Assembly: GCA_963847445.1 (NCBI GenBank)
Contig: CAWJZV010000024.1
Location: forward strand, 64,001 to 128,000
DNA: 64,000 bases
Direction: 5' to 3'
DNA from: an uncultured delta proteobacterium
Lineage (GTDB): Bacteria > Desulfobacterota > Binatia > UBA9968
Positions 3,105-16,921 of the stretch are shown here, one piece after another (within the stretch, counting starts at the first letter, position 1; each line of letters opens with the position of its first letter). A program made the translations under genes and the position numbers. Below the pieces are notes generated by a model, which saw only the letters and a program-made list of their open reading frames with translations, had not been told where the DNA came from and ran no database searches.

Positions 3105-4143
3105 ATGCTCAAGTGTTTCACTCTTGTCGCTTACATCTTACTTTCGCTGACTGCCGCGTCCGCCCAGACCCCGTATTTTCAGGGCAAGACGATCAAGATC
3201 GTTCGCGGCGGCGAGCCCGGCGGCACCGGTGACATGCAAGCGCGCGCAGTCATTCCCTTCTTGAAAAAACATATTCCCGGCAACCCGACGATCATCGTCG
3301 AAAACATGCCGGGTGCGGCGGGACGCAAAGCCGCCAACCATATTTACTCGACGGCGAAACCCGACGGGCTGTCGATCGGCGCGGTGGGCGCCGGCCTGGT
3401 CGCCGGTCAGATTCTTGAATTGGCCGGCTCGCAATACGACATCGAAAAGCTGATCTACTTGGGCTCCACCGAAAGCGGCGATCCCTACGTCTTCGTCGGC
3501 CGCAAGGACGCCGGTCTCGATACTCTCGATAAACTGCGCGCCGTCATCGGGGATCAGGATCGGCGCCCAAGCCGTGGGCCATCCGGTCTATGTCAGCGGC
3601 AGGCTGTTCGCCTATCTGCTCGGCTTGAAAGAACCGAGAATGGTGCTCGGTTACGGCGGTCCGGAAATGGACATTGCGATGGCGAAGGGAGAAATCGATG
3701 TGCGCGCCAATGGCGCGGATACGGTACTGCAGCGCAACAAAGAGCAGCTCGAAAAAGGCTTCTACCAATTTCACGCGTCGATCTCGATACCCAAGGGGCG
3801 CTACGCCGTCGGCCTGCCGAAAGCGCCGGAGTTGGAGAGCTTTGCCAAGAACGATCAAGAGCGCCAGCTGATCAATCTGTTTCGCACATTTCTCTATCCG
3901 CGCTGGCCCTATCTCTTGCCGCCGGCCACGCCCAAGGAAATCGTCGCGATCCTGCGCGGCGCCATGACCAAAGCGTTGAAAGATCCCGAGTTCCACAAAG
4001 AGTTCAAAAAACTCATGGCCACCGACGCCACGCCGCTCACCGGCGAGGAACTGGAAACCGCGATCAAAGAGCTGCCGCGCGATCCGGAAATCGTCGCGCT
4101 GTACAAAAAAATCGCCGATCAGGGGCCGCTTCCCGCGCGCTAA
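3105..4143 (+). CDS. TctC-family substrate-binding protein (frameshift near 3545-3555)
   Basis: Signal peptide plus AQTPYFQGKTI...GGTGD...ENMPGAAG in ORF 3105, continued by ORF 3574..4143 ending GPLPAR. Confidence 0.85.
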
Positions 4144-4152
4144 AACAGAGGA

Positions 4153-4282
4153 GTTCAAAACGTTCAAACCGTTCAACGCTACGCTCCGTTCAATCCCTTC
4201 AACGCTCATGTTCCTCCCCCGCGACGCGGGGGAGGATCGAGGAGGGGGCTTGAGCGATTTGAACGGCTTGAACGTTTTGAAC
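4153..4282. repeat. Composite palindromic intergenic element (GTTCAA/TTGAAC family)
   Basis: Same architecture as 2954-3087; core CCTCCCCCGCG-A-CGCGGGGGAGG. Confidence 0.9.
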
Positions 4283-4313
4283 GATACAGGCTTGATGTAA
4301 GAAGGAGGAGTTT

Positions 4314-5352
4314 ATGCTGAAACGCTTCACTCTCGTCGCTTACATTTTGTTCTCGGTAAATTCCGCGTCCGCCCAGACGCCCTTCTACCAGGGCAAAACC
4401 CTCACCATCGTTCAGGGCACGGAAGCGGGCGGCAGTTCCGACACTCAGACTCGCGCGCTGCTCCCCTATCTGAAAAAACATATTCCCGGCGAGCCCAACA
4501 TCGTCTCCGAGTACATGCCCGGTGGCGGCGGCATGAAAGCCGCCAATCATATTTTCAAGGGCGTCCGGCCCGATGGCTTGACCATCGGCCGCAGTCGGCG
4601 GCGGTCTGGTCGCCAATGCCGTCCTCGGCGAGAAGGGCGTGCTTGTACGATCTCAGCAAGTTTATTTATCTCGGTTCGCCGCACAGCACCTACCATTGGG
4701 TTTTCATCACGCGCAAAGAAGCGGGGCTGAAAAATATCGAAGCCCTGCGCTCGGCGACGGGAGTGAGAATCGGCGCGCAAACCGTCGGCCACTCAAACTA
4801 CTTCGTCGGCCGTTTGTTCGCGCATCTGATCGGCTTCAAAGATCCCAAAATGGTCGTCGGTTACTCCGGCACCGAGCTCGACATTGCGCTGATGAGCGGC
4901 GAGATCGACGGCCGGATCAACAATCCCGACACCTTGGCGATCCGCAACGCCGAGTGGCTCGCCAAAGGCATGATCGATATCCACGCGATCATGGAAGTGC
5001 CGCGCGGCCTCAAACAACCGGGCTTCGACCGCTTGCCCGAAATCGAAGAGTTCGCCAAATCGAGCGCGAGAAAAGGCTGCTGGCAATGGTGCGCGCTTTC
5101 CGGCAATTCGGCACGCCGTCATTCTTCCCGCCGGGCACGCCGCCGGAACCGGTAAAAATTCTTCGCGCCGCAACCGCGAAAATGTATAGCGATCCGGACT
5201 TTCACAAAGAGTACAAGAAACTGGTCGGTGAAGAGCCGACGCCGCTGTTGGGTGAAGATATGGAGCGCGTGATCAAAGAACTGCCACGCGACCCGGAGAC
5301 CGTCGAGCTGTTTAAGAAGCTCAACGCCGCCGGGCCAGTGCCGGCGCGCTAA
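4314..5352 (+). CDS. TctC-family substrate-binding protein (frameshifts near 4590-4640 and 5060)
   Basis: Three consecutive ORF pieces (4314, 4616, end of 4639) join into one TctC ending GPVPAR; AGGAGG RBS upstream. Confidence 0.82.
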
Positions 5353-7997: not shown

Positions 7998-8279
7998 ATG
8001 GCACTCGATTTCGAGTGGGATCCGGCTAAGGCTGAAGCCAACCTGAAAGAACATGGAGTCTCTTTCGACGAAGCGACGACAATTTTCCGTGACACGCTTT
8101 CAATTACCATCTCGGACCCGGATCACTCCGATTCTGAAGATCGCTTTATCGATATCGGCATGTCTCATCGTATGCAATTGCTCGTGGTGTCGTACACAGA
8201 ACGCCAAGATAAGATTCGAATCATAAGTGCACGACAACCAACTCGGGCTGAACGGAGAAGCTATGAAGAAACAAACTAG
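7998..8279 (+). CDS. brnT: BrnT-family type II toxin (ribonuclease)
   Basis: FEWDPAKAEANLKEHGVSF...EDRF...IRIISAR signature. Confidence 0.92.
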   Translation: MALDFEWDPAKAEANLKEHGVSFDEATTIFRDTLSITISDPDHSDSEDRFIDIGMSHRMQLLVVSYTERQDKIRIISARQPTRAERRSYEETN

Positions 8280-8505
8280 ACGGAAGCCGTCGGCAAGCAG
8301 TGATACGATGCGTCCGGAATACGACTTCAGCAAAGGGGTGCGAGGTAAGCACGCCGCAAGTTACGCCGAAGGTACTAATGTGGTCGTTCTGGAAGCCGAC
8401 GTCGCACGCGAGTTCCGAACCACTGAGCAAGTGAACGAAACCCTGCGTGCAGTTTCAAAACTGCTTCAACTACGGCGAAAACCACCGCGCCGGACGACGG
8501 CCTAA
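8263..8505 (+). CDS. BrnA-like antitoxin
   Basis: Overlaps the brnT 3' end; MRPEYDFSKGVRGK...VVLEADVA...VNETLR is typical of antitoxins paired with BrnT. Confidence 0.8.
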   Translation: MKKQTRRKPSASSDTMRPEYDFSKGVRGKHAASYAEGTNVVVLEADVAREFRTTEQVNETLRAVSKLLQLRRKPPRRTTA

Positions 8506-8829
8506 CAAAGCGATGAATCCGGCGCCGCTGCCGAGCGCATCATGGGACTTCGCGTCGCATCTGCCATCATACTTGCGCTCTACTACCATATGGGGCTTAT
8601 GTTCTTTTTCGTCCCTCGTGATGCGAAACCGGCAGACTCGGCCAGCAAAGGGGTTCGCGACGTCTGACCCGCGGCTCAAGACTGATGTCGAAAGCGCTCG
8701 CCTTCCAGGCGCGCTTGTTCGCCACGGCTTAGCCGCATTGCGTTATCGATCCCATTCGCAAGCCCTGCTTGCATATTCCACCGCCCGCATCTCTACCCTC
8801 ATTCGCCGATAGATGATAGTTATCGCCTC

Positions 8830-10104
8830 ATGCGATTAGACCTTGGCTACATTCACATAAAGGACATTCGTTTCGGTGCGGGGACGTCGATTGAAAGCGG
8901 CGTACTGACAATCAACCGCGTGGAAATCATTTCTCTACTCGAACAAGAGCCGCTCTTCGAGCGCGTCGACATCGAACTCGCTCATCCCGGCGAATCCTGC
9001 CGAATCCTGCGCGTGCTCGACGTCCTCGAGCCGCGTTATCGCTTGAACGGTCCCAATTTTCCCGGCGCCCTCGACGGCAACGGTCTGGTCGGCGACGGCG
9101 CGACCCGCGCTTTGAAGAATGTCGCGGTGGTCGAAACCGATCAGACGGCGCCGCGCTCGCGCAACTTGATCGACATGAGCGGACCGGCGGCGGACTATTC
9201 GCCCATCGCCAATACCCACAACGTCGTCCTGCTGCCTTTTCCGAAAAAGGACGTCGATAAAAATGACTATCGTCTTGCCGTCAAGAAAGCCGGTCTCAAA
9301 ACTGCCGCCTATCTCGCCGCGGCGGCGAAGGATTTAAAACCTGACGAAACCCGGGTCTTCGAACTGCCGCCGGTGGCGGCGAATCAAGGGCCGAAGGATC
9401 TGCCGCGCATCGCCTACATCTTTCCGATGCACTCGCATCAGCATCCGACGCAGCAAAAAGAGACGGTCTTTTACGGCAGCAACATCCAGGGCTTCATGCC
9501 CACCGTGGTCCATCCCAATGAGATTCTCGACGGCGCGCTGATGTTTTCCTACTCGGCGTTTACCTGGTTTGCGCAGAATCATCCGGTGATCCTGGAGCTC
9601 TACCGCCGCCATGGCAAAGATCTCTGGTTCGCCGGCGTCGTCCTCACCGTCGCGCCCGCCGTGGTGTCTGAAAAGGAACGCAACGCTTTTCTCAATGCCC
9701 GGCTCGCCAAAGAAGTCTTGAACGCCGACGGCATCCTGTCGACGAAAATCGGCGGCGGCGCCGTCGACACCGATTTGATGATGACCTACACCCGCGCCGA
9801 GGAGATGGGCATGAAGGCCGCTCTGATCATCATGGAGCGCTACCCCGACACTGGCATCACTTTCGTGCCGGAGAATGTCAACGCGCTGATCACACCCGGC
9901 CTGACCCGCGACCCGATCACCCTGCCCGCCGTTGACCGCGTTATCGGCGGCGACACGCTGCACCTGGATAACTCGAACCCAGACAATACAAACCCCGGCC
10001 TTGTGCCGCTGCCGGCGAAGCAGGAGATTACCGTCTGGATGGGCGACCTGGTCGGCGCCATCAGTCAAACCGGCGCATCGCGACTGACGACGTATATGAG
10101 TTAA
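8830..10104 (+). CDS. Glycine/sarcosine/betaine reductase component B non-Sec subunit (GrdE/GrdG/GrdI family)
   Basis: MRLDLGYIHIKDIRFG, ELAHPGESCRI...DVLEPR, IDMSGPAADYSP, PTVVHPNEILDGA, QNHPVILELYRRHGKDL; directly upstream of the grdB-like gene. Confidence 0.88.
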   Translation: MRLDLGYIHIKDIRFGAGTSIESGVLTINRVEIISLLEQEPLFERVDIELAHPGESCRILRVLDVLEPRYRLNGPNFPGALDGNGLVGDGATRALKNVAVVETDQTAPRSRNLIDMSGPAADYSPIANTHNVVLLPFPKKDVDKNDYRLAVKKAGLKTAAYLAAAAKDLKPDETRVFELPPVAANQGPKDLPRIAYIFPMHSHQHPTQQKETVFYGSNIQGFMPTVVHPNEILDGALMFSYSAFTWFAQNHPVILELYRRHGKDLWFAGVVLTVAPAVVSEKERNAFLNARLAKEVLNADGILSTKIGGGAVDTDLMMTYTRAEEMGMKAALIIMERYPDTGITFVPENVNALITPGLTRDPITLPAVDRVIGGDTLHLDNSNPDNTNPGLVPLPAKQEITVWMGDLVGAISQTGASRLTTYMS

Positions 10105-10122: not shown

Positions 10123-10187
10123 TCTCGCGCCAAGCGCGCCAAGTTCGGAACTTTTTTCTTTGCGTCCTTTGCGGTCTTTGCGCGAGA
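10123..10187. repeat. CGCCAAG/CTTTGCG palindromic repeat between the reductase genes
   Basis: TCTCGCGCCAAG...CTTTGCGCGAGA inverted ends with 9-nt periodic CTTTGCG units. Confidence 0.75.
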
Positions 10188-10220: not shown

Positions 10221-11510
10221 ATGAGTACCAAGATCCGCGTCGTTCACTACTTGAATCAATTCTTCGCCCAGATCGGCGGCGAGGACAAAGGCGATGTCGG
10301 CCCAACCGTAAAAGCCGGGGTGATCGGCGCCGGCCGCGCGCTGCAGCAAGCGCTCGGCGAAGATGCCGAAGTGGTCGCGACGATTTATTGCGGCGACAAT
10401 TATTTCGCCGAGCATCAAAATCAGGTCGTCGCCGAACTGCTTCGGCGCACAGCGGAATTCACAGCCGATCTATTGATCGCCGGCCCGGCCTTCGAGAGCG
10501 GCCGCTACGGCGTGGCCTGCGGCGCTATTTGCCAAGCGGCGCAGCAAAAACTCGGTATCGCCAGCGTTGCCGGCATGGATGAAGACAACGTCGGCGCCGG
10601 CTTGTATCGCAAAAATATTTACATCGTCAACTCAGGCGCATCCATCGCGCGCATGGTGCCGACGCTGCAACGCATGGCAGCTTTGGGATTGAAACTGGCG
10701 CGCCGCGAAGCGATCGGCAAACCGGCGGACGAAGGCTACCTGTCACGCGGCATCAAGCGCAACGAATTCGCCGCCAAGCCGCCCGCCGAGCGCGCCGTCG
10801 ATATGTTGCTCGCCAAACTGGCCGGCAAAGAATTTCACTCCGAAATCGCCACGCCAAAATTCGCCGGTGGCAAACCGGCCGCGCCGCTGGGCGATTTGAA
10901 ATCAGCGGTGATCGCACTGGTCACCGACGGCGGGCTAGTGCTGGAAGGGAATCCGGATAAGATCGAGCCGGGACGGCCAACCCGCTTCACGACCATTCCG
11001 ATTCACAACGTCAACACGCTCGCCGCCGACAAGTACGACGCCGTCCATTCGGGCTACGACACCGCCAGCGCCAATCTAGACCCCAACCGACTGGTGCCGC
11101 TCGACACCATGCGCGAACTCGCCCGCGAGGGCGTCATCGGCAGCGTCCATGAATTCATTCACTCCACCGGCGGCGCCCACGCCGCGGTGGAGAACGCCGT
11201 GCAAATCGGCCGGCAGATCGCCGACCAGCTGAAAGCCGCCGGCGTCACCGGCGTGATCCTCACCTCCACTTGAGGCTCCAGCACTCGCTGCGGCGCAGCG
11301 ATCAGCAAGGAAATCGAAAAGCTGGAAATCCCGGTGACGCAGATCTGCACGATGATCCCGGTGGCCAAAGAAGTCGGCTCGCTGCGCGCCATCGCCGCCG
11401 GCGGCATCGTCAGCCCGACCGGCAATCCGGAACTATCGCCGGAAAAAGAAAAACAGTTCAGGCGGGACCTGGTGCTGCGCGCACTGGAGACACTGCAGCA
11501 AGAAGTGTGA
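10221..11510 (+). CDS. Glycine/betaine/sarcosine reductase-family selenoprotein B (GrdB-like), Sec at codon 351 (TGA 11271-11273), 429 aa
   Basis: VVHYLNQFFAQIGGEDK, CGDNYF, GPAFESGRYGVACG, DPNRLVPLD; in-frame TGA in ILTST-U-GSSTRCGAAISKEIEK, after which the frame continues 78 codons of GrdB-like C-terminus (PTGNPELSPEKEK...RALETLQQEV) to TGA 11508. Confidence 0.93.
11285..11301 (+). promoter_or_regulatory. Candidate bacterial SECIS element of the grdB-like gene
   Basis: Perfect 7-bp stem TCGCTGC/GCAGCGA with GGC loop, after an 11-nt spacer following the UGA. Confidence 0.75.
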
Positions 11511-11528
11511 TTAATCGTTGGGAGTATT

Positions 11529-11668
11529 TCTCGCAAAGGCGCCAAGACGCAAAGTTAAGTAAAGACATGTCATTGCGACCGAGGGGAGTAATCTCGCCCG
11601 AATCCGACAGGTCTCCTCCGGACTGACGGTCTTCGCCCGTCACTTTGCGCCTTAGCGCCTTTGCGAGA
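11529..11668. repeat. CGCAAAG/CTTTGCG palindromic element with internal GTCATT...GGGAG unit
   Basis: TCTCGCAAAGGCGCCAAGACGCAAAG ... CTTTGCGCCTTAGCGCCTTTGCGAGA; related copies at 16758 and 23270. Confidence 0.85.
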
Positions 11669-11711
11669 TCAATGTTCTCTCAGAATTCGACCATCGAACG
11701 TTGGAGTCACG

Positions 11712-16757: not shown

Positions 16758-16887
16758 TCTCGCAAAGGCGCAAAGACGCCAAGGCGACGGGCGATGCCCG
16801 TCATCCCGAGGGAACACGAGGGATCTAAGAAAGATTTCTCCCAGGGGTCGAAATGACAACAATTCCGAACTTAGCGCCTTTGCGAGA
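16758..16887. repeat. CGCAAAG-family palindrome with nested GTCATCCCGAG...CGAAATGAC unit
   Basis: Inverted ends TCTCGCAAAGGCG / CGCCTTTGCGAGA between convergent genes. Confidence 0.8.
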
Positions 16888-16921
16888 GACATTCCGAATT
16901 TCAGAATTTATCTAGATCTGC

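What the first reader, a model, noticed from the sequence alone, without database searches (positions are those of the whole stretch)
10221..11510. Hidden GrdB-like selenoprotein with atypical U-x-x-S-x-x-C active site
Seen: TGA at codon 351 in TST-U-GSSTRCGA, an intact 78-codon C-terminal extension, and a perfect 7-bp hairpin after an 11-nt spacer. Known: clostridial GrdB/GrdF/GrdH carry STUGTCTRCG (UxxCxxC) near residue 350. Here the first Cys is Ser (AGC). Inference: different Sec resolution/protection chemistry and probably a different substrate from the Stickland enzymes.
Basis: partly seen in the sequence, partly recalled or inferred. Interest (0 to 1): 0.75.

Follow-up and report, generated by a model that had tools for sequence, protein, structure and literature searches.

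The report
Hidden GrdB-type selenoprotein, Ser-variant clade
This is a real selenocysteine-containing relative of the glycine-reductase B subunit that databases cut short at its UGA codon; it belongs to an uncharacterised soil-bacterial branch whose active-site motif and partner subunit both lack the cysteines of the classical clostridial enzymes, so it probably reduces a different, still unknown substrate.

Summary
Window 10221-11510 (+) is one 429-codon gene of the GrdB family. Codon 351 is an in-frame TGA (11271-11273) in TST-U-GSSTRCGA, followed by 78 codons under purifying selection.

- **SECIS:** a hairpin 11 nt downstream is the family-wide SECIS. It shows compensatory changes in 4 of its 7 pairs across 99 loci.
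- **Sec machinery:** the genome has tRNA-Sec, selA, selB, selD, GrdA (with Sec) and GrdC.
- **Motif:** UGSSTRC is invariant in all 12 same-genus orthologs, so it is not a sequencing error. Every one of the 120 closest database proteins listed stops at or near the UGA.
- **Clade:** Ser at +3 marks a whole clade (UGSSTRC, UGTSTRC, UGTSTRS) found in "delta"/Binatia-labelled, Chloroflexota and Methylomirabilota MAGs. It is separate from the canonical UGTCTRC GrdB clade.
- **Partner:** the upstream GrdE-like subunit (8830-10104) lacks the Asn-Cys...Cys pyruvoyl-forming site. The link is complete in this sample: 54/54 pairs with Cys at +3 have the site and 30/30 without Cys lack it.

My reading is a non-pyruvoyl, substrate-specific "protein B", as in GrdHI and FarBE, that passes its product to GrdA and GrdC. 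The substrate is unknown and the chemistry is inferred. I rate it a new variant of a known kind.

The parts
8830..10104 (+). GrdE-family partner subunit (424 aa), non-pyruvoyl type. The canonical GN-C-VSA-C-DK cleavage site is replaced by MFSYSA plus a 6-residue deletion. The protein has a single Cys, near residue 57.
   Evidence: Pfam PF09338 at 6.5e-96. NCBIfam GrdG 259 bits and FarE 240 bits, both far below their cut-offs. Alignment of 85 partners. Adjacent to the GrdB-type gene in 6 of 6 ortholog loci with long flanks.
10221..11510 (+). GrdB-family selenoprotein gene: 429 codons, with Sec at codon 351.
   Evidence: AlphaFold2 model with mean pLDDT 91.4.
11271..11273 (+). In-frame UGA read as selenocysteine (U351).
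   Evidence: A TGA is kept at this position in every homologous locus examined. tRNA-Sec, selA, selB and selD are present in the genome.
11280..11291 (+). Codons 354-357 (S-T-R-C). Ser354 (AGC) stands where the canonical enzymes have the first Cys. Cys357 (TGC) is the retained second Cys, and its first base lies in the SECIS stem.
11285..11301 (+). SECIS hairpin: stem 11285-11291 pairs with 11295-11301, loop GGC, 11 nt after the UGA.
   Evidence: Best Rfam match here is SECIS_4 (RF01990) at 11281-11302: 20.3 bits, E 0.039, below the gathering score of 38.

Best explanation

**Shown**
- UGA-351 is recoded as Sec by the hairpin 11 nt downstream, using the organism's SelA/SelB/SelD and tRNA-Sec.

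**Inferred from family and synteny**
- The product pairs with the GrdE-like protein encoded just upstream.

**Inferred from the missing Asn-Cys...Cys site and from the GrdI and FarE precedents**
- This partner is not processed to a pyruvoyl enzyme. The substrate is therefore not activated as a Schiff base.
- Instead, the selenolate of U351 sits at the N-terminal cap of helix 352-366. It attacks the alpha-carbon of a carboxylate that already carries a good leaving group, such as an onium group or a halide. This forms a Se-alkyl (carboxymethyl-type) intermediate.
- That group is handed to the Sec of GrdA and processed with GrdC. Both are encoded elsewhere in the genome, and oxidised GrdA would be re-reduced by thioredoxin.
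- With Ser at +3, Sec cannot be parked in the one-turn Se-S bond proposed for UxxC. Only Cys357, two turns away, remains as a possible internal thiol.

The substrate is unknown.
For: **A real, translated selenoprotein gene**
- Searches show the conserved frame, the invariant motif and purifying selection after the UGA.
- One case is T(11289):A(11297) here against A:T in the UGTSTRS paralogs, so the Cys/Ser codon change is compensated by a synonymous Ala codon change.

**Family and clade**
- Family membership is shown.
- The Ser(+3) clade has SH-aLRT 100 in the 98-row quick tree and 82/99 in the 49-row careful tree. UGSSTRC itself is 100/100 and the canonical clade 100/99.
- Nine of 9 Ser-clade representatives score 414-552 bits against the GrdB equivalog (cut-off 602.2). 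Twenty-one of 22 representatives with Cys at +3 score above it.

**Partner and downstream components**
- In 84 GrdE/GrdB pairs with both parts readable, 54 of 54 with Cys at +3 have both partner cysteines and 30 of 30 without Cys at +3 have neither.
- Other Ser-clade members are physically linked to the downstream system. The order is grdC-grdA-grdE-grdB in G029 and grdE-grdB-grdC-thioredoxin in L061 and L067.
- GrdA is over its cut-off in 34 of 41 genomes of the order.

**Structure and literature**
- The model puts strand 344-349, then U351, then helix 352-366.
- Passages of PMC10838667 report that FarB lacks the CxxC and that FarE, like GrdI, lacks the processing cysteines.

**Weak hint of expression**
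- Contigs from RNA-labelled libraries bridge the UGA: X19 at 11052-11306, X20 at 11149-11358 and X16 at 10870-11307.
Against: - No biochemical data exist for any member of the clade.
- Sec insertion, complex formation, lack of processing and transfer to GrdA are all inferred.
- The link between +3 Cys and the partner's cysteines may reflect a single ancient split, so it is not independent evidence of coupling. GrdH with GrdI breaks the rule according to the literature: PMC6778437 lists UxxCxxC for GrdB/F/H, and PMC10838667 says GrdI lacks the processing cysteines (passages).
- Ser242, or Ser240 in another alignment, is invariant at the aligned cleavage position in 11 of 11 orthologous partners and in L106. 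A serine-derived pyruvoyl group is therefore not excluded.
- GrdD (NF040747) is over its cut-off in 0 of 41 genomes of the order. The downstream route cannot be the textbook GrdCD route to acetyl phosphate.
- No grdA, grdC or thioredoxin gene lies next to this particular pair.
- Gene neighbours are not conserved beyond close kin, so they give no clue to the substrate.
- The genome has at least three haem-copper oxidase loci, an odd setting for an oxygen-sensitive selenol that lacks the proposed protective cysteine.
- The RNA-library contigs may be DNA carry-over.
Confidence: 0.6

Rival explanations
1. It is an ordinary glycine (or sarcosine) reductase protein B whose motif has drifted. The substrate is still bound as a Schiff base, perhaps to a serine-derived pyruvoyl group formed at Ser242 or Ser240 of the partner.
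For: The best NCBIfam scores are GrdF at 475 bits and GrdB at 417 bits. Some JGI records name close relatives 'glycine reductase'. A Ser is invariant at the aligned cleavage column in 11 of 11 orthologous partners and in L106. Most classical pyruvoyl enzymes form the group from Ser (abstract of PMC3689656 in the listing).
Against: Scores are far below the equivalog cut-offs of 602 and 800. The partner has a 6-residue deletion that removes the second Cys, and it lacks the Asn before the cleavage site. The sister lineages have E, P, Y, H or N in that column. The clade is separate from canonical GrdB.
Confidence: 0.12
2. It is a functional betaine-type reductase like GrdH/GrdI. It would cleave glycine betaine or another quaternary ammonium or sulfonium acetate, releasing the amine or sulfide.
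For: The partner lacks the processing cysteines, as GrdI does (PMC10838667, passages). Several JGI records name close relatives 'betaine reductase'. Such substrates need no Schiff base.
Against: The GrdH model gives 415 bits against a cut-off of 775, which is not the best hit. GrdH keeps UxxCxxC (PMC6778437, passage). No betaine-type transporter family was among the Pfam hits of the neighbouring ORFs scanned. This rival is a special case of the best explanation rather than a true alternative.
Confidence: 0.15
3. It is a GrdA-independent reductase that works like D-proline reductase. Sec351 forms the selenoether, and Cys357 (or an external thiol) resolves it directly. The product is a reduced acid and no acetyl phosphate is formed.
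For: No grdA, grdC or trx gene lies beside this pair in 6 of 6 ortholog loci. GrdD was not found in the order. One internal Cys is retained at +6 in this subclade. One genome, G021 (95% complete), has the ortholog but no GrdA hit.
Against: The UGTSTRS sister subclade has no Cys at +3 or +6, yet sits next to grdA and grdC. GrdA is found in 34 of 41 genomes of the order. The PrdB model gives only 78 bits against a cut-off of 300.
Confidence: 0.1
4. The TGA is a true stop. The 350-residue product is the protein, or the gene is decaying, and the downstream frame and hairpin are relics.
For: All public gene calls stop at or near the TGA. This assembly carries many frameshifts.
Against: The downstream 78 codons are under purifying selection: 1438 synonymous against 474 non-synonymous differences, with variation concentrated at third positions. 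The motif and frame are kept in 12 of 12 orthologs. The SECIS shows covariation. A full Sec machinery is present.
Confidence: 0.02

Closest known systems
Glycine reductase protein B, GrdB with GrdE (Clostridia and relatives; NCBIfam TIGR01917, Pfam PF07355 and PF09338)
   Same: The two-gene architecture (grdE-type then grdB-type) and the length are the same. The Sec sits at the same position after the conserved ILTST strand. The SECIS hairpin has the same placement. GrdA and GrdC are present in the genome.
   Different: The motif is UGSSTRC instead of UGTCTRC. The score is 417 bits against a cut-off of 602. The partner lacks the Asn-Cys...Cys pyruvoyl site. No grdA lies between grdE and grdB. 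GrdD was not found. The host has aerobic oxidases.
Betaine reductase GrdH with GrdI (Peptoclostridium acidaminophilum and others; NF040795)
   Same: The partner subunit lacks the processing cysteines, which implies no Schiff-base activation (PMC10838667, passage).
   Different: GrdH keeps UxxCxxC (PMC6778437, passage). The score is 415 bits against a cut-off of 775. No GrdH or GrdI reference sequence was placed in my trees.
Fluoroacetate reductase FarB with FarE (Cloacibacillus porcorum MFA1; NF053623 for FarE)
   Same: It is a GrdB-type selenoprotein reported to lack the CxxC, with a partner that is not a proprotein (PMC10838667, passages). It is the only printed precedent I found for a functional B component without the motif.
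   Different: P0002 scores 240 bits against the FarE cut-off of 675. This protein keeps the +6 Cys. No radical-SAM (farC-like) or antiporter (farA-like) gene was seen among the neighbours scanned. No FarB sequence was available here for direct comparison.
D-proline reductase PrdB with PrdA (TIGR04483)
   Same: Same superfamily. A Sec nucleophile acts on an alpha-carbon.
   Different: Only the C-terminal half matches (residues 224-404, 78 bits against a cut-off of 300). PrdA is a pyruvoyl proprotein and the system uses no GrdA. The short orphan 'PrdB-like' selenoproteins that this scan noted in other genomes belong to that branch, not to this one.

Membership tests
GrdB/F/H/PrdB umbrella family of reductase selenoprotein B (TIGR01918, PF07355) | Profile score above the curated cut-off over the full length | tested here: met
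   TIGR01918 gives 462.7 bits against 65.45 over residues 6-429. PF07355 gives 422 bits against 22.
GrdB/F/H/PrdB umbrella family of reductase selenoprotein B (TIGR01918, PF07355) | Sec (UGA) at the conserved position after the ILTST strand, with a SECIS downstream | tested here: met
GrdB/F/H/PrdB umbrella family of reductase selenoprotein B (TIGR01918, PF07355) | Adjacent GrdE-family (PF09338) partner gene | tested here: met
   (6 of 6 ortholog loci).
Glycine reductase GrdB (equivalog TIGR01917) | Score at or above the equivalog cut-off of 602.2 bits | tested here: not met
   417.1 bits. All 9 Ser-clade representatives score 414-552, while 21 of 22 representatives with Cys at +3 score above 602.
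Glycine reductase GrdB (equivalog TIGR01917) | UxxCxxC motif | tested here: not met
   The motif here is UGSSTRC. The canonical UGTCTRC is in 61 of 79 readable loci.
Glycine reductase GrdB (equivalog TIGR01917) | Partner GrdE is a proprotein with the Asn-Cys cleavage site that yields a pyruvoyl group | tested here: not met
   The site is absent and the 424-aa partner has a single Cys, near residue 57. Processing itself cannot be tested with these tools.
Glycine reductase GrdB (equivalog TIGR01917) | Works with GrdA, GrdC, GrdD and thioredoxin | tested here: inconclusive
   GrdA and GrdC are present at C4:214-216 kb. GrdD was not found: 0 of 41 genomes over the cut-off.
Sarcosine reductase GrdF (NF040794) | Score at or above 800 bits | tested here: not met
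   475.5 bits.
Betaine reductase GrdH (NF040795) | Score at or above 775 bits | tested here: not met
   415.3 bits.
Betaine reductase GrdH (NF040795) | Partner (GrdI) without processing cysteines | tested here: met
   The GrdI property is taken from a passage of PMC10838667.
Fluoroacetate reductase FarB/FarE | Partner scores at or above the FarE cut-off of 675 bits (NF053623) | tested here: not met
   240.1 bits.
Fluoroacetate reductase FarB/FarE | farA antiporter and farC radical-SAM genes in the operon | tested here: not met
   No such Pfam families were found among 21 neighbouring ORFs of window 940-21717.
D-proline reductase PrdB (TIGR04483) | Score at or above 300 bits | tested here: not met
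   78.2 bits.
Bacterial SECIS element | Conserved hairpin about 11 nt after the UGA, supported by covariation | tested here: met
Bacterial SECIS element | Reaches the gathering score of an Rfam SECIS family | tested here: not met
   SECIS_4 gives 20.3 bits against 38.

The most novel reading that the evidence does not exclude
The Ser(+3) clade (UGSSTRC, UGTSTRC and UGTSTRS) would be a widespread family of selenium-dependent C-X bond reductases in soil and sediment bacteria that can also respire oxygen. These enzymes would use neither a pyruvoyl cofactor nor the 'obligatory' CxxC guard, and would run with GrdA and GrdC but without GrdD. They would act on substrates other than glycine, sarcosine, betaine, proline or fluoroacetate, and would deliver the acyl group by a route other than GrdD-dependent acetyl-phosphate formation.
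Probability: 0.35. Interest if true: 0.75.

Novelty: new variant of a known kind. Interest (0 to 1): 0.55.

Why it matters
- **A working assumption fails.** The UxxCxxC motif has been treated as required for selenoprotein B. One genome paper called a B component without it a likely pseudogene (PMC6778437, passage). Here whole clades keep the Sec, the SECIS and strong purifying selection while lacking one or both cysteines, so that criterion would wrongly discard real genes.
- **Annotation.** Every close relative in the public protein sets is truncated at or near the UGA. The active site of an abundant soil protein family is therefore missing from databases.
- **Enzymology.** The pairing of "no Cys at +3" with "no pyruvoyl site in the partner" points to a second mechanistic class of protein B. 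This class is not confined to anaerobic fermenters, and its substrate can now be sought by expression and screening.
- **Protein C.** The apparent absence of GrdD in 41 related genomes raises a separate, testable question about how the acyl group leaves the system.

Tried and rejected
- **Solved structures:** phmmer of both subunits against PDB sequences found nothing at E <= 0.01. Foldseek of the model against the PDB gave only generic two-domain alpha/beta hits with TM <= 0.22. No solved relative could be used to place residues 351, 354 and 357 relative to the partner.
- **Folding energy:** the 70-nt stretch after the UGA folds no better than shuffles (z = -0.12). It was dropped as evidence.
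- **Rfam:** only a sub-threshold SECIS_4 match.
- **Neighbourhood as a substrate clue:** TctABC and TctC-like binding proteins, other solute-binding proteins and an Amidohydro_3 gene flank the pair here and in the closest relatives. The more distant orthologs have unrelated neighbours: a Zn ABC transporter and sigma-54 in G008, a restriction-modification system in G015, a luciferase-like gene in L054, and Amidohydro_2 with glyoxalase in L106. I draw no substrate inference from these.
- **ORF 8447-8812:** no family hit, and found only in G004. Not part of the system.
- **Representative-library search:** nearly all hits stop at the Sec, so it could not map motifs. It gave four longer or C-terminal sequences read and several fused forms.
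- **Earlier notes of this scan:** nothing at this place. The word search returned only short orphan PrdB-like selenoproteins in other genomes, a different branch.
- **Literature:** searches for Binatota with glycine reductase (0 papers) and for UxxSxxC or UxxSxxS (0 papers with either term) found no description of this variant. One search was swamped by an unrelated acronym.
- **Sequencing runs:** DNA runs holding about half of the sampled words come from soil and sediment metagenomes. Small-share rows were used only after laying them. Parts of the stretch without RNA-library cover are not interpreted.
- **Complex prediction:** not run. Binding of the two subunits is already the textbook expectation, and a score would not have located the active site.
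Full report
**Observation.** Window 10221-11510 (+) translates as one 429-residue protein if the TGA at 11271-11273 (codon 351) is read through. The local sequence is ...GVILTST-U-GSSTRCGAAISKEIE..., with AGC (Ser) at codon 354 and TGC (Cys) at codon 357. Seventy-eight sense codons follow before the stop at 11508-11510. After an 11-nt spacer, TCGCTGC (11285-11291) and GCAGCGA (11295-11301) form a perfect 7-bp stem around GGC.

**Is it more than chance?**
- A six-frame search of 40 related genomes found 12 orthologs of 77-96% identity, each with one TGA at this position. All 12 carry the identical TST-U-GSSTRCGAAISKEIE and an open frame behind it. L016 belongs to the unpublished genome G005; no claim depends on it alone.
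- In 11 full-length orthologs (L013 was dropped for a 3' frameshift), codons 352-429 vary mostly at third positions (23/10/66). They show 1438 synonymous against 474 non-synonymous pairwise codon differences. That is at least as constrained as codons 1-350 (149/119/319; 6239 against 3989).
- The folding energy of the hairpin region is unremarkable (z = -0.12), but the pairing is conserved. In 33 sequences from this order, 95.4% of cells pair and 2 of 7 pairs change on both sides. In 99 sequences from the whole family, 92.4% pair, 4 of 7 pairs show compensatory changes (61 cells), and 0 of 500 shuffles reach the observed covariation. The outermost pair is often open (41 of 94 rows), so the core is 6 bp.
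- One compensatory change is instructive. The T of the Cys357 codon pairs with the A of GCA (Ala359). In paralogs with Ser at +6 the codons are AGC and GCT. The active-site motif and the SECIS are thus written in the same nucleotides.
- The best Rfam match on this spot is SECIS_4, below threshold (20.3 against 38 bits).

**Selenium machinery.** The window's genome is 7.19 Mb in 48 contigs, 91.8% complete and 6.9% contaminated.
- It has a tRNA-Sec at C2:139122-139203.
- It has a selA-selB-selD cluster at C14:191-196 kb. selB is broken into frames by assembly frameshifts, and selD has its own TGA.
- It has one GrdA gene with a UGA (NF040748, 180 bits against 130) next to GrdC (NF040746, in two frameshifted pieces of 397 and 122 bits) at C4:214-216 kb.

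**Family placement.**
- Pfam GRDB matches residues 4-350 (2.5e-126). The umbrella NCBIfam model TIGR01918 matches residues 6-429 (463 bits, cut-off 65). The equivalog models for GrdB (417 against 602), GrdF (475 against 800) and GrdH (415 against 775) are all missed.
- The 120 closest clusters listed from the 5.8-billion-protein set (79-99% identity) are 347-393 residues long and cover about 81% of the query, so they stop at or near the UGA. The gene is truncated throughout the public protein sets. Where sources name them, the names are glycine or betaine reductase, or the umbrella family.

**The motif across the family.**
- A scan of one genome per species returned 80 loci. Seventy-nine have a readable motif: UGTCTRC 61, UGTSTRC 8, UGSSTRC 5, UGTGTRC 2, UGSCTRC 2, UGTSTRS 1.
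- The canonical form is found in records titled Bacillota, Synergistota and a few other phyla. The Ser(+3) forms are found in records titled Deltaproteobacteria or 'delta proteobacterium', Dehalococcoidales, Anaerolineales, Rokuibacteriota and Methylomirabilia. NCBI labels two close relatives of this protein Deltaproteobacteria and 'Candidatus Binat...'.
- In a 98-row quick tree, the Ser(+3) sequences form one group (SH-aLRT 100) of three subclades, and the canonical ones form another (97). In a 49-row careful tree the supports are 82/99 for the Ser(+3) group, 100/100 for UGSSTRC, 100/100 for UGTSTRS, 99/91 for UGTSTRC and 100/99 for the canonical clade. Both trees used LG+G4 without the mixture model. 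The long-branched paralog L003 sits near the midpoint root, so the rooting is unknown.
- Twenty-one of 22 representatives with Cys at +3 reach the GrdB equivalog cut-off. None of the 9 Ser-clade representatives does.
- The same genome holds further paralogs with UGTSTRS, UGTGTRS and UGTCSRS.

**The partner subunit.**
- The gene just upstream (8830-10104) is a GrdE-family protein (PF09338, 6.5e-96). Its best NCBIfam scores are far below cut-off: GrdG 259 bits and FarE 240 bits. It is adjacent to the GrdB-type gene in all 6 ortholog loci fetched with long flanks.
- Canonical partners carry ...SGN-C-VSA-C-DKN.... In C. difficile GrdE, the peptide starting at residue 242 bears the cysteine-derived pyruvoyl group (PMC9908766, passages).
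- The partner here reads ...LMFSYSA------FTW.... It has a six-residue deletion and no cysteine in the region; the only Cys of the protein is near residue 57.
- Across the 84 GrdE/GrdB pairs where both could be read, 54 of 54 with Cys at +3 have both partner cysteines and 30 of 30 without Cys at +3 have neither. On the tree this may be a single ancient split, so it is not independent evidence of coupling. Betaine reductase is reported to combine UxxCxxC in GrdH with a GrdI lacking the cysteines (PMC6778437 and PMC10838667, passages).

**Links to the downstream system.**
- Other Ser-clade members sit beside the common components. The order is grdC-grdA-grdE-grdB (UGTSTRS) in G029 and grdE-grdB(UGTSTRC)-grdC-thioredoxin in L061 and L067.
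- GrdA is over its cut-off in 34 of 41 genomes of the order, always with a TGA.
- GrdD (NF040747) is over its cut-off in 0 of 41, with a best score of 29 bits. PF02504 finds nothing in the window's genome.

**Structure.** An AlphaFold2 model built on a 39-sequence alignment has mean pLDDT 91.4. It puts strand 344-349, then Thr350-Sec351, at the N-terminal cap of helix 352-366. Residues 354 and 357 therefore lie in the first two turns of that helix. By ordinary helix geometry (my inference; no distances were measured) +3 is the close neighbour of Sec and +6 is one turn further. No solved structure of the family was found by sequence or by fold.

**How it most likely works.** My reading is a second mechanistic class of protein B, with these steps.
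- No pyruvoyl group is formed, so the substrate is not activated as a Schiff base.
- The helix-capped selenolate attacks directly an alpha-carbon that already carries a leaving group.
- The alkyl group is transferred to the Sec of GrdA, and further steps go through GrdC.
- Ser354 cannot form the one-turn selenenyl-sulfide that the +3 Cys is proposed to provide as protection. The protective role is stated in passages of PMC6778437 and PMC10838667.

The steps shown are gene integrity, recoding signals, family and clade membership, and absence of the cleavage site. The steps inferred are complex formation, lack of processing, the nucleophilic mechanism, the use of GrdA and any statement about the substrate. 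UxxS is a recognised redox-motif type in other selenoprotein families (PMC1976440, passage). I found no paper using UxxSxxC or UxxSxxS.

**Evidence against, and open points.**
- A Ser is invariant at the aligned cleavage column, so a serine-derived pyruvoyl group cannot be excluded.
- No grdA, grdC or trx gene lies next to this pair.
- GrdD is missing.
- The genome encodes several haem-copper oxidases, so the organism is not a strict fermenter.
- Neighbours beyond close kin are not conserved, so the Tct-type transporter genes and the amidohydrolase near the gene say nothing reliable about the substrate.
- Contigs from RNA-labelled libraries of two studies bridge the UGA (X19 and X20; X16 is only guessed to be RNA), but DNA carry-over is possible.

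**Comparison with what is known.** The protein is a member of the umbrella family, but not of GrdB, GrdF, GrdH or PrdB by their curated cut-offs, and its partner is not FarE. In how it works, it most resembles GrdHI and FarBE. FarB is the one printed case of a working GrdB relative without the CxxC (PMC10838667, passages). The earlier notes of this scan concern short, stand-alone PrdB-like selenoproteins in other genomes, a different branch.

**Verdict.** I class it as a new variant of a known kind, with interest 0.55.

**Papers.** For every paper cited I saw only the search listing and the passages returned by paper reading 'find'. Wagner 1999, Andreesen 2004 and Bednarski 2001 are known to me only through those passages and reference lists. 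I opened no supplements.

Noticed in passing
window 11525-11672 and 16759-16890; partial copy near 10176: An inverted-repeat (MITE- or REP-like) element of about 145 bp lies directly after the GrdB-type stop codon, and another after the amidohydrolase gene. Its end motif occurs 50 times in the genome against about 0.4 expected.
   Followed up: partly
G000 and 40 related genomes: GrdA (34 of 41 genomes) and GrdC are present, but GrdD (NF040747) is over its cut-off in 0 of 41. In the window's genus, grdC-grdA sits beside a HAD phosphatase, a solute-binding protein and a soluble transhydrogenase. The textbook acetyl-phosphate-forming half of protein C seems to be missing.
   Followed up: partly
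G000:C17:213424-214695, C32:4416-5690, C42:220513-221787, C4:67002-68298, C25:1932-3205: There are five further GrdB-type loci with an in-frame TGA and other motif variants (UGTSTRS, UGTGTRS, UGTCSRS). C32 and C42 are near-identical copies and C17 and C25 are close copies, which fits the 6.9% contamination or strain mixing. Several are frameshifted.
   Followed up: partly
G000:C14:192903-194790 (selB), C4:215-216 kb (grdC), window 3105-5352: Many genes are split by frameshifts (selB into four pieces, grdC into two, TctC-like genes in the window). This points to indel errors in the assembly rather than to pseudogenes.
   Followed up: no
window 7998-8505: A BrnT-family toxin gene and the overlapping small ORF (a likely antitoxin) lie between the TctC-like genes and the GrdE-like gene. 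They are 100% identical at protein level in G004 and absent from the other ortholog loci, so this looks like a recently inserted cassette.
   Followed up: no
L059:1732-4053; proteins P0145, P0154, P0167, P0204: Fused GrdE-GrdB open reading frames of 774-798 residues up to the Sec codon exist in a Rokuibacteriota-titled MAG and in the representative library.
   Followed up: no
proteins P0200 and P0268: There are family members with Cys (TSTCGTGTRCGA) or Thr (TATTGTGTRSGA) at the Sec position. P0128 and P0221 show C there, but it cannot be told whether that is a Cys or a converted U.
   Followed up: no
G000:C14:194887-195726: SelD itself has an in-frame TGA, so it is probably a selenoprotein form of selenophosphate synthetase.
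   Followed up: no
L133:13440-14402 (G029): An ArsS-like radical SAM (seleno)protein gene (TIGR04167, 449 bits) lies about 1 kb downstream of the grdC-grdA-grdE-grdB cluster.
   Followed up: no
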